A DNA stretch of 64,000 nt from contig CAZBLE010000003.1 in the NCBI GenBank assembly GCA_964492735.1, forward strand, positions 6,279 through 70,278, written 5' to 3'. Source of the DNA: an uncultured Gammaproteobacteria bacterium. GTDB taxonomy: Bacteria; Patescibacteriota; Patescibacteriia; UBA9570; XYC2-FULL-38-9. The notes beneath the pieces are model-generated. The model was not told where the DNA came from. It did no database searches and worked only from the letters and a program-made list of their open reading frames with translations. A program made the position numbers and the translations under genes. This document shows positions 8,599 through 63,659 of the stretch, in pieces. Every line of letters starts with the position of its first letter. The stretch's first letter is position 1.

Positions 8599-10443
8599 TT
8601 ATTGTGATTTAAATTGTCGATTAGATTTGATGTACCATTGTGCAACTGTAGAAAAACGGTCAGATGGAACAGAGATATACTGCGTTGGATTCACGCCCCG
8701 AATTTTTTTATGCATTGCATACGGATACGTAGAATTGTACAAGAAAATTGCTGGAACACCTTCTGCGATACGAGTTTGAAATTGCATATATTTATCTCGT
8801 CGCTCATCATCAGATGTGGTTTTACGAGCTTGATCAAGCAGTGTATCTGCTTCTCGGTCTCGGAAAATTGCCAAACTAAGCCCCGGAGCTTCTTGTTGAG
8901 ATGAGTGCCAGAATGGATATGGATCTGGGTCTGTGCCAACAATTTGCGCGAATAACAGTGCGTCATAATCACGATTCTTGATCGTTGTTGTTTGGATATC
9001 TTGCGCGCTCGCAGTTGTAATATTCACTTTCACGCCCACTGCTTTCCACTCACGTTCTAATTCCTGAGCGGTCTGTTCATATTCTGGAATACTCGCAGTT
9101 ACAAGTGAGAATTCTAATTTCTTTCCGTCTTTTTGGCGCGGTTCAAATGGCTCTGAATTTGCATCTTTGCCTTCTGGATACTTCCAATTTGCCTCTTCTA
9201 AGAGCTTTGTACTTTCTTGAATATTTTGCGCATATTCACCAACACTTGGATTATACCCTAAATATCCAGGCAAAATTGGTGTATGAATCACCTCTGCTTG
9301 GCCTGCAAATACATCTTGTACAATCTGTTGTTTATTTAGCGCATATGCCAATGCTTTACGCACTGCCCCTTCTTGCAACACCGCAGACTTTTGCTGATTA
9401 AAAAATACTGCTGTGTATTGTGGAATGCGTAAATGCTGCAATGTGAGATCATTATTTTTCTTTTGGATTGTCGCCCAATCAGACCCTGAAAAAAATGCTA
9501 GCCCTTCAACTTTATGGGACTGCAATGCATCAATAACCGTTGCTTCGTCTGGAAAAAACGCAAACTGCATTTTTTCAATATGTGGCTTTGTGCCGTAATA
9601 CTCATTATTGCGCTTTAAATCCACTGACTTAATCGTCCCTTCACGATCTTTTTTTACAGTATCAATCATGTACATACCACTGCCGACCGGAGTAAGGTTA
9701 TGCTCATTTAAACCAATTGTTTGAGGTGTCACATCAAACCAAATATGTTTCGGTAAAATACCAAACGTCAATGTTGTTAAAAACGGAGCAAACGGCTCTT
9801 TTAATGCGAGAGAGAATGAATGGTCATCAATTTTTGTTGCTGTCACTCCTTTTAAAGACGCGAGCAAAGGGCTTTGGTACAGCGGATCTTGAATGAGTCC
9901 AATTGTAAATAAGACATCATCTGCTGTTAACTCTTGCCCATCATTCCATTTTACATCATGGCGCAAGAAGAATGTATAGGTTTTTTTGTCCTCAGAAAGC
10001 GTGTAGTTCGTAATGACATCAGGTTGCAATGTTTGGTTACCATCGTATTGAAAAATACTTGAAAACAGCAATTTTGTGAGGTCAGAGTCGACATCAGACA
10101 ACGGTGATAATACTGGGTTAATGTATTGCGGCGCACCAACAACACCTTCTGTGTACATTCCCCCATCCTGCGGCATCACAACTGTTGCGTTAAAATAGCC
10201 ACGAATAGAAAGAACAGGGACTGCTATAAGAACAATCGCAATCGAAAGCCAAGTAATAAACCGCTCACGACCAGTTAATAAGCGAAAAAAATAGGTTATT
10301 TGACGCCATGAGGGAATTTTCCGATTCGGAGTTGTCATATAGACCAGTTGCTCAGTAGAAGCGTCCGGACGAAAACGACGAAGTCGGGCAGCGATCGAAT
10401 CAGAGACAGATTGTGTAACAGATTGTTTCATAATAAAAGACAA
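8599..10443 (-). CDS. extracellular solute-binding protein, family 5 (peptide/nickel-type SBP) with N-terminal membrane anchor
   Basis: 614 aa. N-terminal TM helix (WLSIAIVLIAVPVLSI) followed by a large domain typical of OppA/DppA-like binding proteins. No adjacent ABC permease or ATPase genes. Confidence 0.65.
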   Translation of the reverse strand: MSFIMKQSVTQSVSDSIAARLRRFRPDASTEQLVYMTTPNRKIPSWRQITYFFRLLTGRERFITWLSIAIVLIAVPVLSIRGYFNATVVMPQDGGMYTEGVVGAPQYINPVLSPLSDVDSDLTKLLFSSIFQYDGNQTLQPDVITNYTLSEDKKTYTFFLRHDVKWNDGQELTADDVLFTIGLIQDPLYQSPLLASLKGVTATKIDDHSFSLALKEPFAPFLTTLTFGILPKHIWFDVTPQTIGLNEHNLTPVGSGMYMIDTVKKDREGTIKSVDLKRNNEYYGTKPHIEKMQFAFFPDEATVIDALQSHKVEGLAFFSGSDWATIQKKNNDLTLQHLRIPQYTAVFFNQQKSAVLQEGAVRKALAYALNKQQIVQDVFAGQAEVIHTPILPGYLGYNPSVGEYAQNIQESTKLLEEANWKYPEGKDANSEPFEPRQKDGKKLEFSLVTASIPEYEQTAQELEREWKAVGVKVNITTASAQDIQTTTIKNRDYDALLFAQIVGTDPDPYPFWHSSQQEAPGLSLAIFRDREADTLLDQARKTTSDDERRDKYMQFQTRIAEGVPAIFLYNSTYPYAMHKKIRGVNPTQYISVPSDRFSTVAQWYIKSNRQFKSQ

Positions 10444-13700: not shown

Positions 13701-15993
13701 AAGATGTAATAGACAGTGCTGCGCTGGTGTTCCCTGAACCAAAATCAACCAGATCAGTCACTGTTAAACGACAGTTTGTGTAACTCCCATCTGATAGTGC
13801 GCCGCCGGATCCATTTGAATCGAGGGTAATTGTGTTGCTTCCACTGCTCGCACTCGTTGTCGTGCTTCGGCAACTTCCTAGTGTAAACGCAATTGTACCA
13901 GCTTCGTTGGTTGTAAAAATATAATTTGGCGTTGTGTCATTTGTCGGCGTTGTCACCGCGGTGATTTCTGAAACAGTTGGCCCAGTTGTATCAACAACAA
14001 TATCTTTCGCCCCTCCAATATTATTCAAACCTGACGGAACTAATGAATTAGTTCGTGTATTTGGTGATGTAGCAAGATCAGTAACACTTTCAGAATTAAT
14101 CATTGACACTGTTAAATCCCCAGTTCCTCCACCCGCTCCTGTTGATGGGACTGTGTATGTTCCAGTTAATGTCGCTGTTGCTACTACACCACTTAAACTA
14201 ACAGAGCCACTATTATTAAGGGTAACTTGCATCGTTGAGGATGCATTGATTGTTTCATCATATGTCGCCGTGATCGTAATAACTGCCCCTGGGCCATATC
14301 GACCACTTGTTGAATCTGTTGTAAACGATTGTAATACAGGCGCGGTCGTATCTGGTGGCGCGCTGGTGGTGAATGTTCCAGTTTGCACTCCTGTGCGTGT
14401 AATATCATCACTCGAATCAACAGTATCAATTCGATAATAATATATAGTACTCGCACTTAAGCCAGTAATTGTTTTTGAATGACTCGTACCAAGTGTTCCT
14501 GTGTTTGCTGTAGCACCTGACAAGCCACCTTCACTAGTCGCAATATAAATTTTTGGTTTTAACGTTTCTGTTGAAGAAAATAAAAATGATACCTGACTAC
14601 TTGTTGGCGTAACTGTTGGTGTTGAAATCGTACCATCAAAAACAGTTGTGGAAACAGAGTTCGTTGGAATTGGGTTATTGTTAAAAGTCAAAATGACAAT
14701 TGATTGACCCGATGTTAAGCTCCCTGTTAAATCACCGCCTGCAACAGTTGCGGAAAAAGAAGAGCTTGAAATTGCCTTTGTTCCTTTATAGACACCACCT
14801 TGGTAGATCATGGCTGAGCCAGTTGATGCGCCAGATAATGCCTCAACGCTGGTTGTTTTTGCAACAATACTTGATGCTGCAGAAAATGGCTCTGAACCAC
14901 TATCATATGCAATATATTGCGTTGCAGCACTATCAAATGTGTTAAATCCAGCAACAACATTACTTGGTGTTGAGTCTTGTAAGTCAATAGCAAGTTGGTT
15001 TCCAGAAAATGTATTTCCATCTGCCGCAAGGCCTGCTCCATTACTCGCACCAATACGGATATCTGAAGGTGAGTCACTGATACAAAATCCACGTTGAGTA
15101 GACTCAATCGTAATTGTATTAGAACGATAGATATGACTACTTCCTCCTATCATGCGGACAGCACAATTATTATTGGAGATAATCGTGTCATCAATAGTCA
15201 CGTTCGTTGCGCTACTGAATTCAAAACCATGAGACGTTGAATTCAATGATTGTGTATTTGTTACTGTCACTCCAGAAGCAGAGCTTGCAGCAATATTTGG
15301 CTGCGATGAAGAATCAACAATCACATTATCAATTACTGTATTCGTTGCGGTACTTGCTACTAAAATACCGTAATTCACAGTTCCATCAACAGTACCGCCG
15401 ATATTGCGACCGATAATTGTGTGTTGAATTGTTGTATTTGCAGAACTAGTGGTAATACCTCGACGTCCGCCATAGATAAATACTTTTTGACCTGTCAGTG
15501 AGCCAGAACCAATTGTGACAAAATCAGAGGTAATATCGAGAGCGCCAGAGCCGATTCCGACAGTGTCCATACAATCTTTCATCGCAATACCCTCAAGTAC
15601 ACTGTTGTCTGAGCCAGGGCCGAAAGAAAGACAATATGGCCGAACAGACGCATCGCCAGTTGATCCGTCAAGAATCAGATCAATTGTTGATGTATCAGTA
15701 TTTTGAAAAACGGCCTTTCGCTGAATAATAGGCAATCCCGTTGATAGTGTGACTGTTTGTGTTCCACCTGCATTTTCAAGTGAAATAATACAATCATCAC
15801 TCGCGCTAATAGCGTTGCAATCAATAATCGCTTTACGAATAGAGCCCGCGCCAGAATCATTGGCGTTACTGACCGTGAATGTTGAAGTAGCCGCCTGCGC
15901 ACTAGTTACTGAAAACAAGCAAAAAAAGAGGCTAAATGCAGCTCCTGCAATGAATCGAACAGACTGTCTATTTTTGATATTTTTTTTACGCAT
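10759..15993 (-). CDS. giant exported Thr/Ser-rich surface protein with tandem Ig-like repeats (adhesin/S-layer-like)
   Basis: 1744 aa. N-terminal signal peptide MRKKNIKNRQSVRFIAGAAFSLFFCLFSVTSAQA. At least three near-identical ~89-aa repeats (TPVSTPTTDNTPSYTFTTNEAG...CTITVTDAAGNASN), with a more diverged copy upstream. Lys-rich C-terminal segment. Confidence 0.8.
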   Translation of the reverse strand: MRKKNIKNRQSVRFIAGAAFSLFFCLFSVTSAQAATSTFTVSNANDSGAGSIRKAIIDCNAISASDDCIISLENAGGTQTVTLSTGLPIIQRKAVFQNTDTSTIDLILDGSTGDASVRPYCLSFGPGSDNSVLEGIAMKDCMDTVGIGSGALDITSDFVTIGSGSLTGQKVFIYGGRRGITTSSANTTIQHTIIGRNIGGTVDGTVNYGILVASTATNTVIDNVIVDSSSQPNIAASSASGVTVTNTQSLNSTSHGFEFSSATNVTIDDTIISNNNCAVRMIGGSSHIYRSNTITIESTQRGFCISDSPSDIRIGASNGAGLAADGNTFSGNQLAIDLQDSTPSNVVAGFNTFDSAATQYIAYDSGSEPFSAASSIVAKTTSVEALSGASTGSAMIYQGGVYKGTKAISSSSFSATVAGGDLTGSLTSGQSIVILTFNNNPIPTNSVSTTVFDGTISTPTVTPTSSQVSFLFSSTETLKPKIYIATSEGGLSGATANTGTLGTSHSKTITGLSASTIYYYRIDTVDSSDDITRTGVQTGTFTTSAPPDTTAPVLQSFTTDSTSGRYGPGAVITITATYDETINASSTMQVTLNNSGSVSLSGVVATATLTGTYTVPSTGAGGGTGDLTVSMINSESVTDLATSPNTRTNSLVPSGLNNIGGAKDIVVDTTGPTVSEITAVTTPTNDTTPNYIFTTNEAGTIAFTLGSCRSTTTSASSGSNTITLDSNGSGGALSDGSYTNCRLTVTDLVDFGSGNTSAALSITSFTIATSAPALTQFATLTTSGTYTTGQTILIGAQFARTLNSASIMTVRLTNGVEVDLAYNPAYGGNIIAANYVVGDSASGEDDSDLQIASILSYSIIDTLGNSTTTPPSIVGITQLRNAMSGLAVTLVVETGATPVIDSISSDAANGSYSPGDSIDIDVTFSEPVTSTGSVTVTLETGTTDQTCTFTITDSRTGTCNYIVQEGDTTADLDATISGTIKDHALNTLTDFTPGTTLAANKNIVIDSGAPTISEVTPVSTPTTDNTPSYTFTTNEAGTISYGGDCSSATTSANSGSNTITFNTLSDGAHTNCTITVTDAAGNASNTLNVASFTVDATAPTISEVTPVSTPTTDNTPSYTFTTNEAGTISYGGDCSSATTSASSGSNTITFNTLADGAHTNCTITVTDTIGNVSNTLNVASFTIDAVAPTILVVTPVSTPTTDNTPNYTFTTNEAGSLSYGGDCASSAVSASVGSNTITFAELADGAHTNCTITVTDAAGNASNVLNVASFTIDATAPVIAITAPTLSATTTITNTTIRVTDARAISSSAVTVDAATTAGHDAISCTQTSGTQVDCTIAITSSGNLKIAAQDALGNVATPATQAGYVIVATTPSPTPSSDTTAPNAPVIVASNGGNASIVTSTGVVQTKTPTFQGTAEALATVIVRDNNSNTLCTTTVGSDGTWNCTATSALAVGSQAISIVAMDAAGNVSSATSVTFTRASVTSSYTIQQKLISPKAKKGKYPTVAKGKTVKYTVKIKNTGEASLTKLKLTQTYPKATLKFKKGTVKPNSTKKKGTLVWNNVLKNKPLAVGATRTITVSYVVKDIPAKKSARTLTVASKATGGKDVYNVTARNRTTKNKKLKVQFSLQDARFQSFIRFGNERSSAQYSPKAQSVSLARGQTLLKFEDGTDNDFNDFQLIMSYKTASAQFEFIPVSVSANLDHTLYFRFVVNGKTTDIPVFRSTKQFANVDERSPVVADVNSLLQ
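12095..12960 (-). repeat. three near-identical ~267-nt tandem repeats inside the giant surface-protein gene
   Basis: Plus-strand antisense ORFs at 12383..12607 and 12650..12874 are 267 nt apart and nearly identical. The protein shows three TPVSTPTTDNTP...ATAPTISEV units. Confidence 0.85.
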
Positions 15994-16037: not shown

Positions 16038-16252
16038 CACTTTTTGCAAGTGTGGCTAATGCTAGGGAAATGATGAGTGTGTAACAGGAGTTGGTGAGTG
16101 TCGTTGTCTTTTAAATAGAGAAAACCTGGCGCATGAGATCAGAGATGTGATCATGCATGCGTCAGGGAGAGGCCAGCTGCTGTGTCGTTGTGATCTGTGT
16201 GTAGATCAGCGAACGATGTGAGCTGCCTCTCAACCGGTGTTGCTCAGCTGTT

Positions 16253-18274
16253 TTACGGCTGAGCGAACAGCGGGTGCGGGCCGTCGGCGATGGCCCAGTT
16301 GTGTGTGGTCTGGCTACCGTCGGGCCAAACGACCTCAACTTGCGCCGAAGCCTGGTTGCTGCCCAGGTCGAGGCAGAAGTCGGAGTCGAGGCCGTTCCGG
16401 TAGCCGGTCGGCTGCTCCCGGAGGACCTCAACGCCGCCCACGGTGACAGTCACGCGCGACAACGAGCCGTTTCGCGGGACAGTCACGCCGTTGCCGGCCA
16501 AGCTTCCGCAAAAGCGGTTTCCGGTTGCGATGCTGTCGTTGCGGAGGTACTTGGGATTCCCCTCATACACTCCGCTGACAACGCAGTCAGCGTCGCCGTC
16601 GTTGTCGAAGTCCGCGCAGACCATCTGGCGATGGTTGCCGCGCGTGGCGTCGGCGCCCATCGTGTCGTTGATGCCGATGCGAGACGGCGGGTAGGGGTAC
16701 GTCATCCCCATCTGGCCGCCCGTGCCGCGAACCGCCATATGCGCCGTGATCGGCTGGCCGTTGGTCGGGCACTCCGCAGCGCCAGGGCAGGTGCCGTTGT
16801 ACCCCCGGCCGTCGTGCCCCCACGGGGTGAGGAACGACGTCGCGACTTGCCCGTCCGGCAAGTAGCGCGTCGTCTCGCCGCCCATTTCCCAAGGGATGGG
16901 GCGCACGGGCGGACCCGGCTCGAAAACGCACGCTGCGCCGAGGCCCTGGCCGCCAGCCAGGGACCAGTCGGCCAACTGCGGGACGTTCCCGGTGTTGTCG
17001 AACCAGAGGTCCGACCCTGGATCGCGGCCGTAAGCCGAGAAACAGAGGTCGTTGCTGCTGGTCGACACCAACAGGTCGGGCCAGTTGTCGCCGTCGAGAC
17101 TGGTAAAGAGGCCGCCCATCGGGCGGCTCCAAGCCAATTGACTCCAACCAGAAGTCCCGTCCTGCTCCACGAAGCGTGGCCAGCCGTCGGTGGTCGTGCC
17201 GTCCCGGACGAAAACGCCGGTCGGCGATCCGCCCATGGGCGATCCCATCGCCCAGATGGTCAGCGACCCGTCGGGGCCGGGCAAGGCCAGCCAGGTGTAG
17301 AGATCGCTTCTCGCGCCAGGGAGGCGCTCGAAGTTTTGACTCGCAACCCAGCCTCCGCCCGGCTGCTGGAAGAACGTCCACGGCAGACTGTCTCGCGACA
17401 TCAAGAGAATGTCGAGCAGCCCATTTCCGTCGATGTCCCAGACGCCCGGGATCGGGCGGATCGTGAACCCGGCACCGCGCCAGGCGGCGTCAAAGGAAGG
17501 GTCAGGCGCCCAGCGACCGTCCGGCTGACGCTCAAAAACGAGCCCAAGCGGCGAAGCCGCCAGGATCTCGACCTGCCCGTCGCCGTCGAGGTCGACGAGG
17601 TCAAGGTAGTTGACCTCGGTCGCCGTTGAGATCCGCGGGTCGAACCCACGCTCGAGGAGACCTGCAGCGACGAAGTCGCCAATCCCGTCCCGAGGGACGG
17701 TCCAGGTTCCCGTCGCCGGGTCGAGCGTGCGGATCGCTCCGCGATAGCTCGACCCGACCCACCGCATGTCAAAGAGACACACCAAGGAGTCGTCCGCCGG
17801 ACCAGCCCAACCGCCCTTGGTGCAGGCGGCGGGATGCCGCTGCACCGGGCGCGGCCCAATGTCGTCCTCCAACCACCCCGCCATGGGCTGGCAGTTGGTG
17901 GGGACGTCGGGCGGACAGATGTCGCCCGCGAGCTCGGTGTAGGTCAGCTGCGGGTAGTCCCCGAGCTGCGTTCCGAGCGCGGTGGGAACGACGGGTGGGA
18001 CGACGTCGGTGTCAGCCGTGTCGACGGTGTCGGTGTCATCCGTGACCTCCCACGCGGGAGTCGTGTCGGTGCCTGCCGACTCATCCGAGTCGTCCGTGCC
18101 ACCTCCCGCCTCAGGCGGGATGGTGTCGTCGGAGGACGGGGGAATCGTGTCCGTCGTGTCGACGGTGTCGATGTCGGGGTGGGGCTGGCGGAAGCCAGCT
18201 CCCACGTCCTCGATGACCTGACAACCGGAGGTGAAAGCGAAGAAGCCAAAAACCAGAGCGCGAAGGGTCGTCAT
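16253..18274 (-). CDS. FG-GAP/VCBS-repeat lipoprotein (ASPIC/UnbV, CRTAC1-like), GC-rich foreign gene
   Basis: ~67 % GC against a ~45 % backbone. Lipobox-type signal MTTLRALVFGFFAFTSGC. Repeated DxDGDG loops (VDLDGDGQVE, WDIDGNGLLD, CADFDNDGDADC). GGAG Shine-Dalgarno sits 6 nt before the ATG at 18274. The longest ORF extends to 18346. Confidence 0.75.
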   Translation of the reverse strand: MTTLRALVFGFFAFTSGCQVIEDVGAGFRQPHPDIDTVDTTDTIPPSSDDTIPPEAGGGTDDSDESAGTDTTPAWEVTDDTDTVDTADTDVVPPVVPTALGTQLGDYPQLTYTELAGDICPPDVPTNCQPMAGWLEDDIGPRPVQRHPAACTKGGWAGPADDSLVCLFDMRWVGSSYRGAIRTLDPATGTWTVPRDGIGDFVAAGLLERGFDPRISTATEVNYLDLVDLDGDGQVEILAASPLGLVFERQPDGRWAPDPSFDAAWRGAGFTIRPIPGVWDIDGNGLLDILLMSRDSLPWTFFQQPGGGWVASQNFERLPGARSDLYTWLALPGPDGSLTIWAMGSPMGGSPTGVFVRDGTTTDGWPRFVEQDGTSGWSQLAWSRPMGGLFTSLDGDNWPDLLVSTSSNDLCFSAYGRDPGSDLWFDNTGNVPQLADWSLAGGQGLGAACVFEPGPPVRPIPWEMGGETTRYLPDGQVATSFLTPWGHDGRGYNGTCPGAAECPTNGQPITAHMAVRGTGGQMGMTYPYPPSRIGINDTMGADATRGNHRQMVCADFDNDGDADCVVSGVYEGNPKYLRNDSIATGNRFCGSLAGNGVTVPRNGSLSRVTVTVGGVEVLREQPTGYRNGLDSDFCLDLGSNQASAQVEVVWPDGSQTTHNWAIADGPHPLFAQP

Positions 18275-18714
18275 GGGAACTCCAGAGCTCGCACGCAGCG
18301 AGTTCATGGGTGGAACGAGACTGCAAACGGCACTATGCCATCGCAATCATTCTCTCTATCATCCAAATACCCCACGACAAAAATGCAATTACTGCATCGC
18401 TGTCCTGAGGCCTCTGGATGATAGAGACGAAACTAGATGAAAAATTCAATTTTCAAAGAATGCAAAAAATTCCAAGTTGGAACTTGCACTACTTACTATA
18501 TCCCATATTTTGACAAAAAAGTCAAGCATTTTTTGGCTAACCTCTGTTGATATTTTCTTAATACGAAAAAGGCCAGAAATACGCAGATGCACGGGGAGCT
18601 GGTCGCTCGCAGTTGTACAAAAGCCTATTCCTGGCGTGCCGAGAGACTCTCGGTAACTTACCTCAATCAGCCTGACTGACATTTCCGCCGTTATCAGCCG
18701 GGCCGATTTTTTTC

Positions 18715-18987
18715 TCACATGAGCAAGGGGTCGGTCAAAGCCTGCCCACCCCACTCGCAACGCCAAGGGCGTGCAAACGGGTCGAAGAAGATCCTCTGCC
18801 GATACTCCCAGGCCCGGAGCTCGAGCTCCTGGATGCTCTCCGGGTCTCGAAGTCCCTTGCAGGCCTCCGTGAACTCCTCCGCGAGCTCAGCAAGCTCCGC
18901 CTCCTGAGCTTCACTGGGCGCGACAGCCCAGTAGAGAGTCGAGTACGCTGCAATGAAGATCCCACTCAACAAAAGAAACTCCCGCAC
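18715..18987 (-). CDS. small GC-rich secreted protein (90 aa), hypothetical
   Basis: GTG start preceded by GGAGG. N-terminal signal-like MREFLLLSGIFIAAYSTLYWAVAPSEA. GC-rich like the adjacent FG-GAP gene. Confidence 0.35.
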   Translation of the reverse strand: MREFLLLSGIFIAAYSTLYWAVAPSEAQEAELAELAEEFTEACKGLRDPESIQELELRAWEYRQRIFFDPFARPWRCEWGGQALTDPLLM

Positions 18988-31901: not shown

Positions 31902-32142
31902 AGGATATGTGTGCAGCGCACATGACTGATAACGACAAGTTGCGCAGAATACGTCAAAGGGAGTTTATGAGAGGCGTTATCCGTTACAAAATACATTTTT
32001 TTTGAGTGATTGTAATAACCAAAATGTGCCGCGTGATGCATTCCTTGGGAGAATATGCAAAACGCGACACCGAAGGCGGCCTCAAACAGCTGAACGATGT
32101 GATGTCGTTGTGACATCGCTCAGGTGTGAGGCAAAGGCCTTC

Positions 32143-33129
32143 TTAGAGCGGGGTCAATGCCGCGGGCACGGACCAGGGCCCGTTGCGGGTCGCCTGGGTG
32201 CTACCCCACAGGGTGGGGAGACCGGAGGCCGGGTCCACGTGGAACCCAATGGCCCACGGGGTGGTCGTGTAGTCGTACTCGAGGACGTCACCGGAACCCC
32301 CGGGCTCCCAGCAGTATGGCGTGTAGTGCCGGGTATGCTGGAAGTCTCCCAGATCGTAGACATCGACCCAGCAGATCTGGGCGCCTGCCGCCCCGGACTG
32401 GAGTGAAATGTCAGGAACTCCCCACGGGCGGCGGATCTCAAGACCCGTGCTGCGGTCGTAGGTGTAGCTGTGGGGGTACGGCGCCGTCACCATGACCGTG
32501 ACGGAAAAGTCAGTCATCACAACACGCGCCGCCGGGCTTGATGCGCCGGTGACGGGGTTGAACGTGACCGGACCAGGGCCCGTTCCGGGCTCATGGCAGT
32601 CGATCGTGATGTTTCCCGGCGCACCAGGCTGCTTAGCTGCGATGCAGAGCTCGTCGCCCATCGCGTCTGCCGCGTAGGTGACGCCAGGGGCGTTGGCTTC
32701 GATCGCCCAGCCGGAGCCCGGGCCGGTTCCAGGGATCCAGGTCCGCACGACGCCGCGCCCGGTCTCGAGCGCGGTAATGAAGCCGCCCCCGAGCGCAAAG
32801 GACTCAAGCGTGACGCCAACCGGCGCCGAGATCGTAGACCAGGTTCCATTGCTGGCGCGGCAGCGGATGGCGAGGCCATCCGTCTGCAGGCCGCAGAGGA
32901 AGTTACCCTCCACAGAGACCTCGTTCAGGGTAGGCGCCCCTGCGGGCACCGTCCAAGCCGGGGTCGCCGAGGTGGACAACAGGGGCTGCACCGCAGGCCC
33001 AGTCTGCAGCACCCAGGTGCCGGACAGGGGCTCGAAGATCGCCGGAGACTCCGCCCTCGCGGGTGAACCTCCGAACAGCAGAGCCGCGGCGAAAAACGCC
33101 GCAGCCACCAAAACCGAGATGTGCTTCAT
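32143..33129 (-). CDS. GC-rich secreted Gly/Pro/Thr-rich protein, hypothetical (foreign gene)
   Basis: 328 aa and ~66 % GC. Signal peptide MKHISVLVAAAFFAAALLFGGSPARA. No recognised domain. Confidence 0.6.
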   Translation of the reverse strand: MKHISVLVAAAFFAAALLFGGSPARAESPAIFEPLSGTWVLQTGPAVQPLLSTSATPAWTVPAGAPTLNEVSVEGNFLCGLQTDGLAIRCRASNGTWSTISAPVGVTLESFALGGGFITALETGRGVVRTWIPGTGPGSGWAIEANAPGVTYAADAMGDELCIAAKQPGAPGNITIDCHEPGTGPGPVTFNPVTGASSPAARVVMTDFSVTVMVTAPYPHSYTYDRSTGLEIRRPWGVPDISLQSGAAGAQICWVDVYDLGDFQHTRHYTPYCWEPGGSGDVLEYDYTTTPWAIGFHVDPASGLPTLWGSTQATRNGPWSVPAALTPL

Positions 33130-52312: not shown

Positions 52313-53389
52313 ATGCAAATTCGCCTCGGCCTTACATACGACGACGTTCTCCTCATTCCTCGCTATTCTGAGGTATCCCCTCGCAATACAGACCTGCGAG
52401 TGAACCTCGCTGGCATCAAACTTGAATTGCCATTTTTGAGCGCGCCAATGGATACGGTAACTGAATATGCAATGGCAAAAGCGATGGGCGAGCTCGGCGG
52501 GCTTGGCGTCATTCACAAAAACATGACCGCGGAAAAACAGGCCGGAATGGTAAAGCAACTCGTTGCAGACGGATTGGTTGGCGCTGCCAGTGTTGGCGGT
52601 GGCGACGAAGAATTTGAACGCGCGAAATTATTGGTTGAAGCTGGCGCTCGAATGATTGTTGTTGACAGTGCGCATGGCCATGCCCAATCAGTACTCAATC
52701 AAGTAAAACGAATTAAAAAAGCCTTTGGGAAAAAGGTCGTTGTTGTTGGAGGAAATGTTGCATCTGGAGCTGGCACAAAAGCCCTTATTGCTGCTGGCGC
52801 TGATGTTGTGAAAGTGGGTGTTGGCCCTGGATCAATTTGCACAACGCGTGTGATCGCCGGCGTTGGCGCGCCACAACTCACTGCTGTCATGGACGCAGTC
52901 GCTGCTGCAAAAAAAACCAAGACACCAATTATTGCAGATGGCGGAATTAAATATAGTGGCGACATCGTGAAAGCCCTTGCCGCTGGAGCAACGGTTGTAA
53001 TGGCGGGTGGATTATTTGCTGGAACAGATGAAGCGCCTGGTGAAGTAATCACAAAAGACGGTAAAAAAATGAAAATGTATCGTGGCATGGGTTCAGCGGA
53101 CGCAATGGAAATGGGCTCAAAAGATCGCTATGGACAAAAAGACACAACGGACAAAAAGAAACTTGTTGCTGAAGGAATTGTTGGATATACGGATTACAAA
53201 GGCGCAGTTGGCGATGTTGTATTTCAACTCGCTGGTGGACTTCGAGCTGGTATGGGGTATAACGGCGCAAAAAACTTGAAAGCGCTCGCGACCAAACCGG
53301 ATTTTATTCAAATTACATCAGCCGGTTTTGCAGAATCACATCCGCATTCACTGAAGATGATTGAGGGTTCCAGTAACTACAAAAAATAG
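52313..53389 (+). CDS. guaB: IMP dehydrogenase/GMP reductase family protein lacking CBS subdomain (guaB-like)
   Basis: 358 aa. Catalytic-Cys loop [12 protein letters not shown], phosphate-binding GGIKYSGD, and no CBS pair. Divergent from guaA. Confidence 0.75.
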
Positions 53390-53450
53390 TTACACAATTT
53401 TCATCGGTCAAAAAAACACTTCTGTATTGAAGCGTTTTTTTATTTGGGTA

Positions 53451-55112
53451 TTAAATGCCTTTATCGCGGCGCATGTCCCACAAGACACTACTCATGTATG
53501 GGCGACGATGCTCCCCTGTTGCAACCATCAGAAGCTTCGTGATTTTTAACCCTTCTGGATCTGTAAACAATAAAATCAACATTTCACGAATAATGTTTGA
53601 ATTCAGCAACACGTAATTATCCGTTCCGATACTGAGCTTCATTCCCTTCTTTTCCCACCATGAAAATGGATGTTCTTTATAGTCACCAAATTGACTAGTG
53701 AGTTTATAGTTTGATGATGGCAGGGAAACCAATTCAACACCTGTATCAATCATTCGATTTAAAATATCGTGCTGATATCGTTCCACTTCACGAGATGTAT
53801 GGAATTTTGTTTTCACAAAAGCTGTCACATCACTTTCAGTGAGCACATCACCTTCAAGCAACTTGCGCAACACTGCGTGATCTCCACGCCAATCCATGTC
53901 ATTTAGCTCGCGACCAAGACTCGAATCAACATCAATTTCCTTCCCTTGATGATTCAGCTCAAGTGCTTCTTGAAACAGGCGATGAAAATAATAGTTTGGA
54001 TTAATCCCTAACGCAACGCCATGTTCAACAGCGTCAATCGCCCAAATGTTGAGCGCATTATCAACTGATTGAATTCCCCGACGCAATGTATACCACGTTT
54101 CGCCATGATGGCTCCGAATTTTAAATCCACGAAATTGTAATTTTCGAAATGGCGCTTTAAATGCCATGTAATTTTCTTTGGTGTAAAAATGCATTTCATT
54201 CCCCACTGTATCAACCGATGTCATGACTTTTGCGATTTCTGGATGACGATCAATAATCGCCAATACTTCATTGACCTGATTACTCATGTCTTCTTCTTTA
54301 TTTGCAAACCGTGTGGTGTCAAAAAAATCTAACTCTTTCCGAAACGATGGGGCAAGCTCAAAAGAAAATTCAGGATGCTTGGATTGAAAATCACGGAAGC
54401 CTTCATAGAGCGCTACGGTGATATCTTCAGAAGACAAATGCTCCATTCCAGGAATTTCTTCAGCCGCTCCAGTTGAATTTGCGCGAGAAAATGTCCATTT
54501 TAAACGGATAAAGCCAACATTTGCTTCAGTCCATAAGCGCTCTGCCATGTGATAAGCCGCATCATGGTGCGCTTGTTTACTTGTCAGCACAACTTTTGTT
54601 AAAAACATTTTGCGCAAATACTGCACAAATGGATTATCAGCTTCATCGTCTCGCAGGCGCAGCAACGGACTAATACTTTCTGGTGTTGTCAGTGTCGCAG
54701 CATCTACTCCATAGACCTCTTGAATTTGTGCAGCAATTTGTGCACCATGTTCTCCAGAAAGCGCTTCCTGCAAGCGTGGGAAAACAAATGATTCATCAAG
54801 TGCGCCGGTTAAATGAGTGTGATGCTCTTGAAAATGAAGTCCAAAATCATGAAAATATTCAAAAAGAGCTTGAGCAAATGGATGCGCAAGCACTTCATCA
54901 ATCGGGACTTGGCGAATTTGAAAGGCTGTTAATAGCTTTGCAAATTCATCAATTGCTTGATGCGCTTCTACTGAAAAGCCATCAATATGCGTTTGTTGTA
55001 ATAAATCCAAGGTACTACGAAGAGAAATACCGTTGGTTTCTGCAACCATTTTGCTCAGCACCATTTTGAGCTCTTGGGCAACTGGATTGGAAGATTGGGC
55101 AGAAAATGTCAT
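53451..55112 (-). CDS. adenosine/AMP deaminase family amidohydrolase
   Basis: 553 aa. HxHLxG (EHHTHLTGAL), HxGE (SHHGETW) and a TD-containing motif (LSIGTDNYVLL), consistent with the adenosine/AMP deaminase metal-binding set. Confidence 0.6.
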   Translation of the reverse strand: MTFSAQSSNPVAQELKMVLSKMVAETNGISLRSTLDLLQQTHIDGFSVEAHQAIDEFAKLLTAFQIRQVPIDEVLAHPFAQALFEYFHDFGLHFQEHHTHLTGALDESFVFPRLQEALSGEHGAQIAAQIQEVYGVDAATLTTPESISPLLRLRDDEADNPFVQYLRKMFLTKVVLTSKQAHHDAAYHMAERLWTEANVGFIRLKWTFSRANSTGAAEEIPGMEHLSSEDITVALYEGFRDFQSKHPEFSFELAPSFRKELDFFDTTRFANKEEDMSNQVNEVLAIIDRHPEIAKVMTSVDTVGNEMHFYTKENYMAFKAPFRKLQFRGFKIRSHHGETWYTLRRGIQSVDNALNIWAIDAVEHGVALGINPNYYFHRLFQEALELNHQGKEIDVDSSLGRELNDMDWRGDHAVLRKLLEGDVLTESDVTAFVKTKFHTSREVERYQHDILNRMIDTGVELVSLPSSNYKLTSQFGDYKEHPFSWWEKKGMKLSIGTDNYVLLNSNIIREMLILLFTDPEGLKITKLLMVATGEHRRPYMSSVLWDMRRDKGI

Positions 55113-55292
55113 ATAGAATAAAAAACAAACTGCACTATTTTTATTATTATAGCAAAAAATATTGAGTTTGTCCAGGTGCGCACGTATAACCTAAACAAGT
55201 AAGTCAACGCCTGTTATTCTCTACCATAATTGTTATTGTTGCATAACAACTCTGGAAGGGACTGATCAGCACGCACGCGGCGACATTCTGAT

Positions 55293-55334
55293 CAGTGGCT
55301 CTTGAACGTACGGCCGTGGCGTACACCAAGAGCC
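55293..55334. repeat. nested perfect hairpin (GGCTCTTG...CAAGAGCC enclosing GTACG...CGTAC) next to two CTGATCAG palindromes at the edge of a GC-rich islet
   Basis: GGCTCTTG-aac-GTACG-gccgtgg-CGTAC-ac-CAAGAGCC. CTGATCAG occurs at 55263 and 55289. Immediately 3' of the small GC-rich gene. Confidence 0.4.
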
Positions 55335-55358
55335 CTTGAGCGGAGCAGCAGCTAGATG

Positions 55359-55636
55359 CTACTGGCCGTCAACAGGCGGCTGAGGGTCCGAAGCCTTCAT
55401 CAGTGGAGGTGCACGATGGAGCCGACGCCGACCCCAGACCCCGAGGCCGAAGCCTACCAGGTAGGAGAGGGCGATCAGCAACGGGTAACCGGACTCCTCC
55501 AACCGACGGGCGAAGAGCACAAAGGCTCCCACCGCGAAGACCAGGATCAGCGTCGTGCGCCACTCCTTGTCGCGACGAAACCCGTCGACGATGAAACCGG
55601 CGATCAGCCCATACATCAACAACCCGAAAACCAACA
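55359..55636 (-). CDS. GC-rich small membrane protein (~92 aa, 3 TM), hypothetical (foreign gene)
   Basis: SD AAGGAG 11 nt upstream of the ATG at 55636, with an in-frame GTG at 55649. Perfect -35 TTGACA upstream. ~65 % GC with G/C-biased third positions. Translation MLVFGLLMYGLIAGFIVDGF... Confidence 0.5.
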
Positions 55637-55733
55637 TTGTTTTCACCACTCCTTGAGTGCCAATCTATTTGGCTACAGCCAGCCTACTGGCTCAAATCAA
55701 GGTTGTCAACAAAGATTCAATACTCTCAAATGA

Positions 55734-55762
55734 CAAAAAACCCTCCAGAAAGGAGGGCTTTT
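55734..55762 (-). terminator. rho-independent terminator of rpoBC (bidirectional hairpin)
   Basis: Minus strand reads AAAAGCCCTCC-tttct-GGAGGG TTTTTTGTC. Lies 22 nt after the rpoC stop. Confidence 0.75.
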
Positions 55763-55783
55763 GTATCGAGTATGTCTGTTTAT

Positions 55784-58700
55784 TTACAGCGTTTCGATTT
55801 CTTCTGTTGTATCTTCATTCGTCTTCGCACCAGCTTCTGGCATTTTAAAACCAGTTCCAACTGGAATTAATTTACCGATGATGACGTTTTCTTTTAGACC
55901 CATCAAGTTATCTACTTTTCCAGACACAGCCGCATCGATCAAGATGCGGGCAGTTTCTTGAAAAGACGCTGCAGATAAGAATGAATCAACAGTTAATGAT
56001 GCTTTTGTGATACCGAGCAATACCGGCTCAACAACCGCTGGTTTACCGCCAGCTTCAGCATTTGCGCGAGCAAGTGCTGAACGTGAAACAACATCGCCGT
56101 TCACTAAGTCAGTTCCCTTTGGATCTAAGACCTTGAAACGTGCAAGCATTTGACGAATGATTACTTCAATATGCTTGTCATTTAACTTCTGACCTTGTGA
56201 GCTATAAATATATTGAATTTCTTTAATGATATATTTATGCACTGCATCGATTCCTTGAAGCGCTTGTAATTCATACAAGTCCAATGAACCTTCTGTTAGC
56301 TGTTGACCTGCAACAACCAGCTCACCTTCCTTCACCCACACGCCATAGCCTGGGACAACTGGGCATTCGCGAATTTGTTCTTCACGACCATAGAGTGAAA
56401 GTTTGGTTTTTTCGATTTTAATTGTTCCAGCAATACGTGCTTTCACAGTTCCATCGACGTTATCAAACAAGGCAGCGCCTTTTTTCACAGTTGCACCATC
56501 GGAAGCGTGCAGCTTGTCAGCTTTTTTCATGGTGTATTTTTCTTCAACATCAGCATCATATCCAATGCGAACAATATACTGACCATTTTCTTTCACAATT
56601 TCTTTCACAACACCATCAACGTCAGCGATCACTGCTGCTCGTTTTAATTGGCGCGCTTCAAACAATTCTTCGACACGTGGAAGACCTTGGGTAATATCAG
56701 CGCCAGCTACACCACCAGTATGGAAGGTACGCATAGTAAGCTGAGTTCCTGGCTCACCAATTGATTGAGCGGCCATAATTCCAGCGGCAGTTCCAAGAGC
56801 TGCTAATTTATTGTTTGAGAGATCGAAACCATAACAGAACTGACACACACCACGATCTTGTTCACACGTCAGTACTGATCGAATGACTGCAGATTCCATT
56901 TCATGACCTTTCACTTTTTCAAGTTCGTCAGTTGAAACTAATGTACCTTTTTTAATCAAGACTTTGCCGTTTACATCAACCAAGTCTTTCGCAAGCACAC
57001 GGCCTAAGATACGATTTGCTAGTGATTCACCCATGTCTGTTGATTCTTTTTCAGAAATTTCAAAGCCACGAGTTGTTCCGCAATCTTCTGCAGCGACAAC
57101 AACATCTTGGGCAACATCAACCAAACGACGAGTCAGGTATCCGGCATTCGCAGTACGAAGCGCAGTATCAGTCAAACCTTTACGCGCACCATGTGTTGAA
57201 ATGAAATATTCCAAGACATCGAACCCTTCTTTAAATGACGCTTTGACTGGCAATTCGATTGTTTCACCAGACGGGTTAATCACGAGACCTTTCATACCCA
57301 TCATCTGAGTTGTTTGACCCCATGAACCACGAGCACCAGAGTTAATCATTGCGAATACTGAACCATCAAGTGGAAGCACTTTTTGTACTTCATCAGTCAC
57401 TTTGTCTTTTGCGGCTGTCCAAATTTCAACAACTTTTACACGACGCTCGTCATCAGTTAAGAGACCCATCATAAAGTTGTGATGGATATCTTCTACTTCT
57501 TTTTCTGCGTCAGCGATAATACCAGCTTTTGAATCTGGAACCATCACGTCATCCATACCCCAAGAAATACCAGAATGTGTGACATATTCAATCGCAATAT
57601 CTTTCACATCATCAAGTAATTGAACAGTACGATCTGGACCTTCAACAGCGAGACATTCTGCAATGATATCTTTCAATACTTTTTTATCAACCACTTCATT
57701 CAAGAACTGTTGTGCTTCTGGCAAGATTGTATTGAACAAGATGCGACCAGCTGTTGTTTCAACAACTCCGTCTGCCATCTTCACAAGAACAGCATCTTGC
57801 AAATGAACGCGACCAGTCTGCTGCGCAAAACGCGCTTCTTCTGCACTTCCAAACGCGAGCATGCGTTTATTGTCGTCTGCTTTTTCACGCTTCACTGTCA
57901 TGTAATATGATCCGAGGACGATATCTTGTGACGGAGTGACGATCGGTTCACCAGTCGCTGGTTTAAGCAAGTTATGTGATGCGAGCATCAATTCTTTTGA
58001 CTCACGACGCGCTTCTGTTGAAAGAGGCACATGCACCGCCATCTGGTCACCATCAAAGTCAGCATTAAACGCTGGACACACAAGTGGATGCACTTGGATC
58101 GCTTTACCTTCAATCAAAATTGGCTGGAAGGCTTGGATACCAAGACGATGCAAGGTTGGAGCACGGTTCAAGAGTACAGTTGCATCGAGTGTCACTTCTT
58201 CAAGGATGTCCCATACTTCAGGACGATCTGATTCAATGAAGCGGTTTGCTGAGCGAACATTGTACACATATTCACGTTCAATCAATTTCGCAATCACGAA
58301 TGATTTGAACAATTCAAGTGCCATACGTTTTGGCAAACCACATTGATACAATTTCAAATGTGGACCAACCACGATTACTGAACGACCAGAGTAGTCAACA
58401 CGTTTACCAAGAAGATTTTGACGGAAACGACCTTGTTTTCCTTTCAGAATATCAGCAAGTGATTTCAACTGACGTTTTTGTCCAGTAGATGCCGTAACAG
58501 TTTTTCCATGACGAGCACTGTTATCGATCAGCGCATCAACCGCTTCTTGTAACATACGTTTTTCATTGCGTTGAATCACTTCAGGTGCATTCAATTCTTT
58601 CAAACGCTTCAAACGATTGTTACGGTTAATCACGCGACGATACAAGTCATTCAAATCAGAAGCTGCGAATCGACCACCGTCAAGTTGCACCATTGGACGC

Positions 58701-63063: not shown

Positions 63064-63336
63064 AGCGTAAACGTTTAATAATTTATTACTATAATAATGC
63101 AGCTGTCTGCATACGCATTTTCAGGCACTACAACAGGTGTTGTACACAATAATAGACACAAAAAGCCGATTTCCTGGTGGAAGTCGGTAGAATGTTGTCT
63201 ATATGTTATTGTGTGATATGCACGAGAAAACGTGTTGTTTCCGAGGAAAATGCCCTAATTTTGGAGCAATATTTACCTCGACAGCTGGATAAAAACAGTT
63301 ACCAGAGCATCAACTCGAATTCATGAAACCTGAATG

Positions 63337-63365
63337 ATTATACGCAATTTACTGATTCCTGTCAA
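63337..63365 (-). promoter_or_regulatory. consensus sigma70 promoter for rpoBC (TTGACA-17-TATAAT), ~265-nt leader
   Basis: Minus strand reads TTGACAggaatcagtaaattgcgTATAAT. A second TTGACA lies 21 nt further upstream. Confidence 0.6.
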
Positions 63366-63419
63366 CGCAAAACCTTGAATTTTGTCAAGAGACCACTATT
63401 TATCTAATTTTAGTCACTT

Positions 63420-63611
63420 TTATTGGCTTTGTGTATAAATATGCGGTGGATTTTTTACTGTTTTTCGCAGCTTGTACACAGGGTTATGCACAGCTGGGCA
63501 TAAGTCGTGTGGTGTATCGCATTTCAGTGGGCAGAATGTGTGGATTCTGCACAGTGGAACGCGATGGAGACGGCGAAACGTGCGTACAGGGCTGATGCCT
63601 GTGTGTTGCAT
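63420..63611 (-). CDS. 63-aa Cys/His-rich small ORF with strong SD (possible small metal-binding protein)
   Basis: GGAGGcggcaaacATG. Translation contains LCRIHTFCPLKCDTPHDLCP. Lies in the GC-enriched segment next to a truncated GC-rich gene. Could be spurious. Confidence 0.25.
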   Translation of the reverse strand: MQHTGISPVRTFRRLHRVPLCRIHTFCPLKCDTPHDLCPAVHNPVYKLRKTVKNPPHIYTQSQ

Positions 63612-63659
63612 GTTTGCCGCCTCCGAGTGGGTGGGGTCTGTTGAGAAGTTGTGTGCGAC

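What the first reader, a model, noticed from the sequence alone, without database searches (positions are those of the whole stretch)
55255..55650. GC-rich islet downstream of the rpoC terminator: small three-helix membrane protein with its own consensus -35 and a nested terminal hairpin
After the rpoBC terminator comes a ~400-nt segment at ~65 % GC. It encodes a ~92-aa membrane protein with an AAGGAG SD and a perfect TTGACA -35. The segment ends in a 13-bp nested perfect hairpin (GGCTCTTG..GTACG..CGTAC..CAAGAGCC) flanked by two self-complementary CTGATCAG octamers. This resembles the structured terminus of a mobile cassette rather than ordinary intergenic sequence, although it does not match integron attC core sites.
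Basis: seen in the sequence. Interest (0 to 1): 0.5.

Follow-up and report, generated by a model that had tools for sequence, protein, structure and literature searches.

The report
Strain-specific GC-rich orphan membrane-protein islet
A 557-base stretch of foreign-looking, GC-rich DNA sits between the RNA polymerase operon and the next gene of a low-GC Bdellovibrio-like bacterium; its two closest known relatives lack it, and it carries a small orphan membrane-protein gene with a hairpin-rich tail but shows no sign of being a repeated mobile cassette.

Summary
A GC-rich core (55256-55637, about 0.61 GC against 0.45 for the window) lies between the rpoC terminator and the promoter of the adenosine-deaminase-like gene. 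It encodes a 92-aa, three-helix membrane protein on the minus strand. Two Bdellovibrionales relatives (90% and 82% nt identity) join the rpoC terminator almost directly to the deaminase promoter, so window 55176-55732 is a 557-nt gain.

The ORF length alone means nothing in GC-rich DNA. Codon-position GC periodicity and codon usage show real coding on the minus strand. The protein is an orphan in every collection searched.

The "nested hairpin" is real. The two CTGATCAG octamers do not flank it. They lie on one side and pair with each other into a second, abutting hairpin.

Nothing supports a cassette-end or repeat role:
- no attC core sites;
- no second copy in the window, 200 kb of relatives, or metagenome and viral collections;
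- no clean target duplication or terminal inverted repeats;
- no recombinase in 64 kb.

Best reading: a strain-specific, monocistronic accessory gene with a structured 3' UTR. It is one of several single-gene GC-rich islets in this lineage, all encoding exported or membrane proteins. Interest is modest.

The parts
55736..55762 (-). Native rpoC intrinsic terminator (11-bp stem plus T-run). It marks the upstream limit of the insert.
   Evidence: It is conserved in L002 and L001.
55176..55732 (.). Segment present in the window but absent from relatives: 557 nt in place of 16 nt in L002.
   Evidence: L002 1-6025 matches window 61753-55733 and L002 6042-7160 matches window 55175-54056, both at 90.3% identity. 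L001 is also empty.
55681..55709 (-). Candidate sigma-70-type promoter: TTGACA (55709-55704), 17 nt, TAGGCT (55686-55681). It lies in the low-GC 5' flank of the insert.
   Evidence: Read. The -35 is perfect. The -10 matches 3 of 6 positions and was not called by the scanner. Function is inferred.
55649..55654 (-). Shine-Dalgarno AAGGAG, 11 nt upstream of the ATG.
   Evidence: Read.
55359..55637 (-). CDS of a 92-aa orphan membrane protein. Hydrophobic segments are at about 1-18, 27-46 and 51-69, with a basic/proline-rich tail.
   Evidence: ORF. GC1/2/3 = 0.66/0.43/0.77. Periodicity exceeds 2000 shuffles and hydropathy shows three hydrophobic segments. It is the only frame with a positive score under the islet codon model. 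AlphaFold2 predicts three helices at pLDDT 73. No homologues were found.
55346..55364 (-). Small stem-loop spanning the stop codon.
55297..55334 (-). The 'nested' hairpin: an 8-bp outer and a 5-bp inner stem with a 7-nt loop.
55261..55296 (-). Second hairpin, abutting the first. Its arms ACTGATCAG/CTGATCAGT are the two CTGATCAG octamers.
   Evidence: I9.
55177..55255 (-). Low-GC (0.38) 3' flank of the insert, with an imperfect AT-rich inverted repeat (55218-55261). It is absent from relatives.
   Evidence: I1.
55146..55174 (-). Native promoter of the deaminase-like gene (TGGACA, 17 nt, TG-TATAAT). It marks the downstream limit of the insert.
   Evidence: It is conserved in L002 and L001.

Best explanation
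The islet is a strain-specific accessory gene unit that entered the short spacer between the rpoC terminator and the promoter of the deaminase-like gene. This happened after the lineage split from its nearest sampled relatives.

The unit is monocistronic:
- a low-GC leader with a plausible sigma-70 promoter (TTGACA, 17 nt, TAGGCT) and a strong ribosome-binding site;
- a GC-rich CDS for a 92-aa, three-helix inner-membrane protein with no detectable relatives;
- a GC-rich 3' UTR that folds into abutting stem-loops.

I infer that the stem-loops act at the RNA level. They would define or protect the transcript's 3' end and insulate the deaminase promoter just downstream. I do not think they are a recombination site.

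The unit belongs compositionally to a set of single-gene GC-rich islets in this low-GC Bdellovibrionales lineage. Those islets encode exported or membrane proteins and also have structured 3' UTRs. Some of them are old and shared with relatives. This one is a recent gain.

Shown: the insertion, the foreign composition, coding on the minus strand, orphan status, the fold, and the absence of repeat or attC features in the data available.

Inferred: expression, the role of the hairpins, the route of acquisition (most likely illegitimate or flank-mediated recombination of DNA from an unsampled GC-rich source or from another strain's accessory genome), and the protein's function.
For: Empty site in L002 (rpoC C-terminus 98.7% aa, deaminase 96% aa, 90.3% nt on both sides) and in L001 (82% nt).

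Composition: CDS GC 0.62 and GC3 0.77, against native genes at GC 0.41-0.45 and GC3 about 0.33.

Coding: codon-position GC range 0.344 against a shuffle maximum of 0.269. The minus frame is the only one of six with a positive log-likelihood under a codon model trained on the other islets. That model fits 0.61 bit per codon better than the native codon model. There are three hydrophobic segments with basic loops and three predicted helices.

The start codon and SD sit exactly at the composition boundary.

The 3' region folds into three stem-loops, z = -3.0.

The other islets have the same architecture without sequence similarity: a gene followed by two abutting long hairpins. A3 gives z = -4.7, C3 -8.05, the L001 islet -3.5 and L010 -3.1 (all-against-all comparison).

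The other islets encode a lipoprotein-type FG-GAP protein, a signal-peptide protein and a membrane-anchored small protein.

The FG-GAP and B islets are syntenic and GC-rich in relatives L010 and L011.
Against: No donor or homologue was found in about 5.8 billion clustered proteins (word-indexed search), in 1.84 billion cluster representatives read in full, or in the PDB, Pfam, NCBIfam, PHROGs, PADLOC, plasmid, phage, metagenome or viral searches. The horizontal origin therefore rests on composition and the empty site only.

The hairpins lack a U-tract, so they are not a canonical intrinsic terminator.

The -10 element is weak, and there are no expression data.

The low-GC flanks of the insert (0.42 and 0.38 GC) are not what a simple block transfer from a GC-rich donor would give.

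GTTGAC occurs once in the L002 empty site and at both ends of the insert: 55710-55705 and 55208-55203 on the minus strand. This could be a remnant target duplication of a site-specific event.

Only 64 kb of the genome could be searched for further hairpin copies.
Confidence: 0.6

Rival explanations
1. Mobile gene cassette. The hairpin/octamer module would be a structured recombination site, like an integron attC or a REP/MITE end, that a site-specific recombinase used to insert the gene here.
For: The unit is a single small gene with a folded 3' module. It is inserted at an intergenic site that is empty in relatives.

GTTGAC is present once in the empty site and at both ends of the insert. Integron cassettes are known to insert at loose genomic G|WT sites (bioRxiv 10.1101/2022.09.11.507474).

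Elsewhere in this lineage a real cassette-like arrangement exists. GC-rich genes upstream of rpoB are each followed by a conserved 121-nt two-hairpin repeat, and L001 has one more gene-plus-repeat unit than the window.
Against: There are no RYYYAAC or GTTRRRY cores on either strand of 55100-55800. The fold is two or three separate hairpins, not one bulged attC stem.

The hairpin is unique in the window. The insert has no significant match in the window or in L001-L009. The exact stem pattern is absent from the metagenome and viral collections.

The covariance model of the rpoB-upstream repeat does not hit the E region.

The GTTGAC copies are not at the homology breakpoints. A 6-mer repeat chosen after the fact in 557 nt is weak evidence.

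No integrase or transposase family was found in 64 kb.
Confidence: 0.12
2. Decaying or silent foreign DNA. The segment would be a fragment of a GC-rich genome captured by chance, perhaps prey DNA taken up by a predatory bacterium. The ORF would be a relic that is not expressed, and the hairpins would be the donor's terminator with no role here.
For: Orphan status. The -10 is weak and no promoter was called. Long ORFs are expected by chance at this GC. No function could be assigned.
Against: The ORF is intact. A consensus SD and an ATG lie exactly at the composition boundary, with a perfect -35 upstream in the co-inserted low-GC leader. A random fragment would not be expected to bring a low-GC promoter and leader matched to the host. 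Codon periodicity is fully preserved. Other islets of the same composition are retained at syntenic sites across relatives, which argues for selection on this class.
Confidence: 0.17
3. Assembly or binning artefact: a chimeric join of reads from a GC-rich organism into a low-GC contig.
For: The relatives are all metagenome-assembled genomes. The window's own proteins are not on record in the assembly collection, so its provenance cannot be checked.
Against: The insert is flanked on both sides by native sequence colinear with L002 and L001. Its leader and 3' flank are low-GC. Independent assemblies from different studies (L001, L010, L011) carry GC-rich single-gene islets of their own, some at syntenic positions.
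Confidence: 0.03
4. The coding strand is the plus strand (ORF 55356..55733, 125 aa), or the segment is a non-coding structured RNA.
For: The plus-strand ORF is open and longer, and GGAG lies 10 nt before its ATG. The 3' block is strongly structured.
Against: The plus frame has GC1 > GC3 (0.77 against 0.66), the reverse of every other islet gene. It scores negative under the islet codon model. It runs out of the GC-rich core into the low-GC flank and encodes a low-complexity hydrophilic product. No Rfam family matches, at the gathering score or at E <= 10 apart from terminator-like noise. Three-base periodicity argues for coding.
Confidence: 0.05

Closest known systems
Strain-specific genomic islet / ORFan accessory gene acquired by horizontal transfer
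   Same: Its composition is atypical for the host, and it is absent from close relatives at an otherwise colinear site. It carries a single short gene with no homologues, inserted between conserved genes.
   Different: ORFans are usually more AT-rich than their host (from memory: Daubin and Ochman 2004). This one is about 20 GC points richer. No donor, mobility gene, tRNA or att site is associated with it. Only the CDS and 3' UTR are GC-rich, while the leader is host-like.
Integron gene cassette with attC, including off-integron insertion at attG sites (bioRxiv 10.1101/2022.09.11.507474)
   Same: It is one small, often orphan ORF followed by a folded imperfect-palindrome module, inserted at an intergenic site that contains GTT.
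   Different: It has no R''/R' core sites and no single bulged stem. There is no integrase or array, no second copy of the module, and the unit has its own promoter-like leader.
REP / REPIN / BIME extragenic palindromes at gene 3' ends
   Same: GC-rich imperfect palindromes lie just downstream of a stop codon, in tandem, and probably act on mRNA 3' ends.
   Different: REPs are defined by many near-identical copies per genome. This one is single-copy in all the sequence available.
Rho-independent terminators of GC-rich bacteria (long stems without a U-tail)
   Same: Stable GC-rich stem-loops lie within 100 nt of the stop codon with no U-run. This contrasts with the host's own canonical rpoC terminator 400 nt away.
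   Different: Termination here is untested. There are two abutting hairpins, plus a third across the stop codon, rather than one.
The 121-nt two-hairpin repeat following GC-rich genes upstream of rpoB in this lineage (window 63515-63635; L001 1368-1488 and 1982-2102)
   Same: It has the same layout: a GC-rich single gene followed by two abutting hairpins in a low-GC genome.
   Different: That repeat is conserved in sequence across genomes and duplicated in tandem with an extra gene. The E module shares no sequence with it.

Membership tests
Integron gene cassette (attC) | R'' core RYYYAAC and R' core GTTRRRY bounding the site | tested here: not met
   Neither motif occurs on either strand of 55100-55800.
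Integron gene cassette (attC) | A single imperfect hairpin of 57-141 nt with extrahelical bases | tested here: not met
   RNA and DNA folds give three separate stem-loops: 55364-55346, 55334-55297 and 55296-55261.
Integron gene cassette (attC) | An integron integrase, or an array of cassettes or attC sites, nearby | tested here: not met
   The neighbours are rpoC and a deaminase-like gene. No Phage_integrase family was found among 37 ORFs of at least 110 aa in 64 kb. The rest of the genome was not available.
Integron gene cassette (attC) | Insertion at a G|WT (attG/attI) point that leaves composite junctions | tested here: inconclusive
   The empty site in L002 contains GTTGAC, and the window has GTTGAC near both ends of the insert. 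The homology breakpoints do not coincide with these copies.
REP / REPIN / BIME | Many similar copies dispersed in the genome | tested here: not met
   There is one copy in the window allowing 3 mismatches. The insert has no significant hit in the window or in L001-L009. Only 64 kb of the genome could be searched.
MITE / IS-derived element | Terminal inverted repeats and a target-site duplication, with no coding capacity | tested here: not met
   There are no terminal inverted repeats at the breakpoints and no clean duplication. The element carries a coding ORF.
Canonical intrinsic terminator | A GC-rich stem followed by a U-run | tested here: not met
   The scanner finds the rpoC terminator but nothing at 55261-55334. 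The downstream sequence is UCCCUUCC.
Horizontally acquired genomic islet | Composition that deviates from the host | tested here: met
   GC 0.62 and GC3 0.77, against native GC 0.41-0.45 and GC3 0.33. The islet codon model fits better than the native model.
Horizontally acquired genomic islet | Absence from close relatives at a colinear site | tested here: met
   L002 and L001 both have empty sites.
Horizontally acquired genomic islet | An identifiable donor lineage or homologues elsewhere | tested here: not met
   No homologues were found. The one hit, P0001, is a translated repeat, not a relative.
Holin / small membrane toxin (type I toxin-like) | Family-level sequence or fold match, a lysis or antitoxin partner, and a toxicity phenotype | tested here: not met
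   There is only a sub-threshold Pfam Phage_holin_3_6 match at E = 0.07. Nothing was found in PHROGs or PADLOC, and there are no fold matches at E <= 0.001. The phenotype cannot be tested here.

The most novel reading that the evidence does not exclude
The E unit, like the other GC-rich single-gene islets of this Bdellovibrionales lineage, could be the product of an undescribed gene-capture system. In that system a GC-rich CDS plus a two-hairpin 3' module would be the mobile unit. The hairpin pair would be the recombination substrate, analogous in logic to attC but with different sequence and structure. The tandem gene-plus-121-nt-repeat units upstream of rpoB would be the resident array, and E would be an off-site insertion.
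Probability: 0.08. Interest if true: 0.75.

Novelty: new member of a known kind. Interest (0 to 1): 0.33.

Why it matters
On its own, this is one more strain-specific orphan gene, and it matters little. Its value is as a clean, datable example: both junctions are defined against an empty site at 90% identity.

It exemplifies a pattern that is unusual in direction. Orphan and accessory genes are normally AT-richer than their host. This low-GC Bdellovibrio-like lineage instead carries several single-gene islets 15-25 GC points above background. They encode exported or membrane proteins with no or few relatives and have long hairpins in their 3' UTRs.

If these come from prey or from an unsampled GC-rich partner, they bear on how predatory bacteria acquire envelope functions. 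If a dedicated capture mechanism exists, that would be new.

Tried and rejected
- Exact-protein look-ups of the 92-aa and 96-aa products and of the deaminase found nothing on record.
- The word-indexed homology search and the exhaustive HMMER search of 1.84 billion representatives gave only P0001. That hit is a translated tandem repeat and was rejected.
- Back-translated peptide scans of metagenome and viral contigs found nothing.
- Pattern scans for the hairpin stems found nothing.
- blastn and tblastn against plasmids and phages found nothing.
- Pfam, NCBIfam, PHROGs, PADLOC and PDB sequence searches gave only sub-threshold transporter or holin-like noise, typical of hydrophobic helices.
- The AlphaFold2 single-sequence model gave three helices. 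Foldseek against PDB and BFVD gave nothing at E <= 0.001. The afdb50 library was unavailable.
- Rfam returned only terminator-like noise on the rpoC terminator. There are no tRNA or tmRNA genes in the window.
- I considered a shared CTGATC/GATC motif between the E and A islet 3' ends and rejected it. GATC occurs 6 times in the islet 3' UTRs against 2.8 expected, and CTGATC is common as Leu-Ile in the CDS. The third CTGATCAG, at 2255, is inside a start-proximal CDS.
- I considered adenine-specific depletion, a DGR-like signature, and rejected it. Only E is A-poor, as expected for a hydrophobic protein. The other islets have A about equal to T.
- I considered a GTTGAC target duplication and left it as inconclusive.
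- Two literature searches for GC-rich islands in Bdellovibrionota found nothing specific.

Full report
**1. What is in the sequence.**

Window 55229-55667 is a compositional spike. 200-nt windows reach 0.66 GC, against a window mean of 0.45.

In gene orientation (minus strand) the layout, read, is:
- rpoC stop codon, then its canonical terminator at 55762-55736;
- a low-GC stretch (55735-55638, GC 0.42) containing TTGACA (55709-55704), 17 nt, TAGGCT (55686-55681), and AAGGAG (55654-55649);
- ATG at 55637 and a 92-codon ORF ending at TAG 55361-55359 (GC 0.62);
- a GC-rich block of stem-loops (55358-55256, GC 0.59);
- a low-GC stretch (55255-55177, GC 0.38);
- the promoter of the adenosine-deaminase-like gene (TGGACA, 17 nt, TG-TATAAT, 55174-55146).

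The two CTGATCAG octamers do not flank it. They lie together on its distal side and pair with each other (ACTGATCAG/CTGATCAGT, 55261-55296) into a second hairpin that abuts the first. A third small stem-loop spans the stop codon. The fold has z = -3.0 as RNA and -3.2 as DNA. As a bare word, CTGATCAG is not enriched.

**2. Is the ORF a gene?**

ORF length is not evidence at this GC. 65% of dinucleotide shuffles of the core have a stop-free run at least as long, and four overlapping ORFs are open here.

Four things are significant:
- Three-base periodicity. GC at codon positions 1/2/3 is 0.66/0.43/0.77. The range of 0.344 exceeds the maximum of 0.269 in 2000 shuffles.
- Frame and strand. GC3 > GC1 > GC2 holds on the minus strand, as in every other GC-rich gene of the window. 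It is the only one of six frames with a positive score under a codon model trained on those genes. That model fits 0.61 bit per codon better than the native codon model.
- Protein properties. There are three hydrophobic segments separated by basic loops, and three predicted helices at pLDDT 73.
- Position. The SD and ATG sit exactly at the composition boundary.

The antisense 125-aa ORF has the inverted GC1/GC3 pattern, scores negative, and runs out into the low-GC flank. I take it to be a shadow ORF.

**3. Is it an insertion?**

A scan of one genome per species with the deaminase-like protein found nine related loci, all Bdellovibrionales/Bdellovibrionota metagenome-assembled genomes. Only the two closest have rpoC next to the deaminase gene.

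In L002 (rpoC C-terminus 98.7% aa, deaminase 96% aa) the rpoC terminator is followed after about 16-18 nt by the deaminase promoter. L001 (82% nt) is the same.

blastn places the breakpoints precisely. L002 1-6025 matches window 61753-55733 and L002 6042-7160 matches window 55175-54056, both at 90.3% identity. So 557 nt (55176-55732) stand where L002 has 16 nt. One gain in the window's lineage is more parsimonious than two precise losses.

The inserted DNA includes the low-GC leader and the low-GC 3' flank, not just the GC-rich core.

**4. Is it a repeated or mobile element?**

- No part of the 557 nt has a significant match elsewhere in the window or in L001-L009.
- The stem pattern has no exact match in the metagenome or viral contig collections.
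- There is no match in plasmids or phages at DNA or protein level.
- No integron core site (RYYYAAC or GTTRRRY) occurs on either strand of 55100-55800.
- The fold is several hairpins, not a single bulged attC stem.
- No Rfam family matches.
- There are no terminal inverted repeats at the breakpoints.
- GTTGAC, present once in L002's empty site, occurs near both ends of the insert (55710-55705 and 55208-55203, minus strand).
- None of the 37 ORFs of at least 110 aa in the window matches an integrase or transposase family.

**5. Is the protein known?**

No. Every search came back empty:
- Pfam, NCBIfam, PHROGs and PADLOC gave nothing significant.
- The PDB sequence search gave nothing.
- The word-indexed search of 5.8 billion clusters gave nothing.
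- The exhaustive HMMER search of 1.84 billion representatives gave one hit at E = 5.6e-5. It is a translated tandem repeat and is spurious.
- The back-translated peptide scans of metagenome and viral contigs gave nothing.
- There are no fold matches at E <= 0.001.

**6. Context: a class of GC-rich single-gene islets.**

The window has four more such islets:
- A, 16253-18346: a 697-aa FG-GAP lipoprotein, GC 0.67.
- B, 18715-18987: a 90-aa protein.
- C, 32143-33129: a 328-aa protein with a signal peptide, also an orphan.
- F, from about 63490 to the window end: the C-terminus of a GAPDH-like protein.

All are on the minus strand with GC3 of 0.75-0.82, against 0.33 for native genes. L001 has its own islets. 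The relatives at about 50% identity have essentially none.

The islets are not all recent. The FG-GAP gene has only two homologues in 5.8 billion clusters. Both sit at syntenic positions in related low-GC genomes and both are GC-rich (L010 at 52% aa identity, L011 at 30%). B and the low-GC leader of A are 84% identical in nucleotides to L010, the same as the neighbouring pcrA gene.

All islet 3' UTRs fold into two abutting long hairpins. A gives z = -4.7, C -8.05, the L001 islet -3.5 and L010 -3.1. Apart from orthologous pairs and two 11-mers shared by A and C, they share no sequence with each other or with E.

So E shares the architecture and composition of the class: a host-like leader, a GC-rich CDS for an envelope protein, and a GC-rich double hairpin. 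It differs in being a recent, strain-specific gain.

**7. Mechanism.**

I commit to the following at confidence 0.6. E is an expressed or expressible monocistronic accessory gene. The hairpins are its RNA 3' end module, acting as a terminator or stabiliser and as an insulator for the deaminase promoter 85 nt further on. They are not a recombination site.

Acquisition was by non-site-specific or flank-mediated recombination of DNA from a GC-rich source that is not in current databases, or from the accessory genome of a sister strain.

The function of the 92-aa protein is unknown. The only defensible statement is that it is a small polytopic inner-membrane protein with a basic, proline-rich cytoplasmic or periplasmic tail.

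Rivals are scored in the Rival explanations section: cassette with a structured recombination end (0.12), silent relic (0.17), assembly artefact (0.03), and plus-strand coding or non-coding RNA (0.05).

**8. Comparison and novelty.**

It works like, and is best filed as, a horizontally acquired strain-specific islet carrying an ORFan. It fails the defining tests for integron cassettes, REP/REPIN elements, MITEs and canonical intrinsic terminators.

It is a new member of a known kind. The unusual aspects are the direction of the compositional deviation (GC-richer than the host) and the lineage-wide pattern, not this locus in itself.

Noticed in passing
window 63515-63635 (-); L001 1368-1488 and 1982-2102 (+): A conserved 121-nt element, predicted to fold into two abutting hairpins with some compensatory changes, follows each GC-rich gene upstream of rpoB. 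L001 has one extra unit (a 132-aa GC-rich gene plus the repeat) compared with the window. This is a cassette-array-like arrangement. A covariance model finds only these three copies in 265 kb, and the core pattern is absent from viral contigs.
   Followed up: partly
window 16253-18346 (-); L010 10001-11908; L011 661-2700 and 7657-9705: FG-GAP lipoprotein genes are GC-rich (0.62-0.67, GC3 0.69-0.82) in every related low-GC genome where they occur. They sit at syntenic positions next to a giant surface protein and are only 27-52% identical to one another (the two L011 copies are 62-64% identical to each other). They have no other homologues among 5.8 billion clusters. The high GC has persisted through substantial divergence.
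   Followed up: partly
window 18353-18547 (-); L011 7387-7853 and 423-500; L010 about 9650-9923: A low-GC non-coding leader upstream of the FG-GAP genes is far better conserved (79-86% nt) than the coding sequences it precedes. It is present before both L011 paralogues. It may be a conserved regulatory region or RNA.
   Followed up: no
window 16100-16255 and 32010-32145: The 3' UTRs of islets A and C each form two long hairpins (z = -4.7 and -8.05). They share two 11-mers (TCACATCGTTC and TCACAACGACA on the gene strand) in opposite order. About 0.01 such matches are expected by chance. This may be a shared REP-like motif or a common source.
   Followed up: partly
window 32143-33129 (-): A 328-aa signal-peptide protein in a 0.67-GC islet is also an orphan, with no hit at E <= 0.001 among 8000 word-sharing candidates.
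   Followed up: partly
L001 11666-20846, compared with window 53389-53451: L001 carries about 9.2 kb, including its own 0.72-GC islet at 14402-15052, between the deaminase-like gene and IMPDH. These two genes are adjacent in the window. The neighbourhood is a hotspot of gene flux.
   Followed up: no
window 63064-63490 and beyond: The gene upstream of rpoB is not rplL or rplJ, as in most bacteria. It is a GC-rich GAPDH-like gene, in both the window and L001 (26% aa identity over the C-terminus).
   Followed up: partly
window 53451-55112 (-): The 553-aa 'deaminase' matches Pfam A_deaminase only over about 65 residues (E = 8e-11). It has a long N-terminal region with no family assignment.
   Followed up: no
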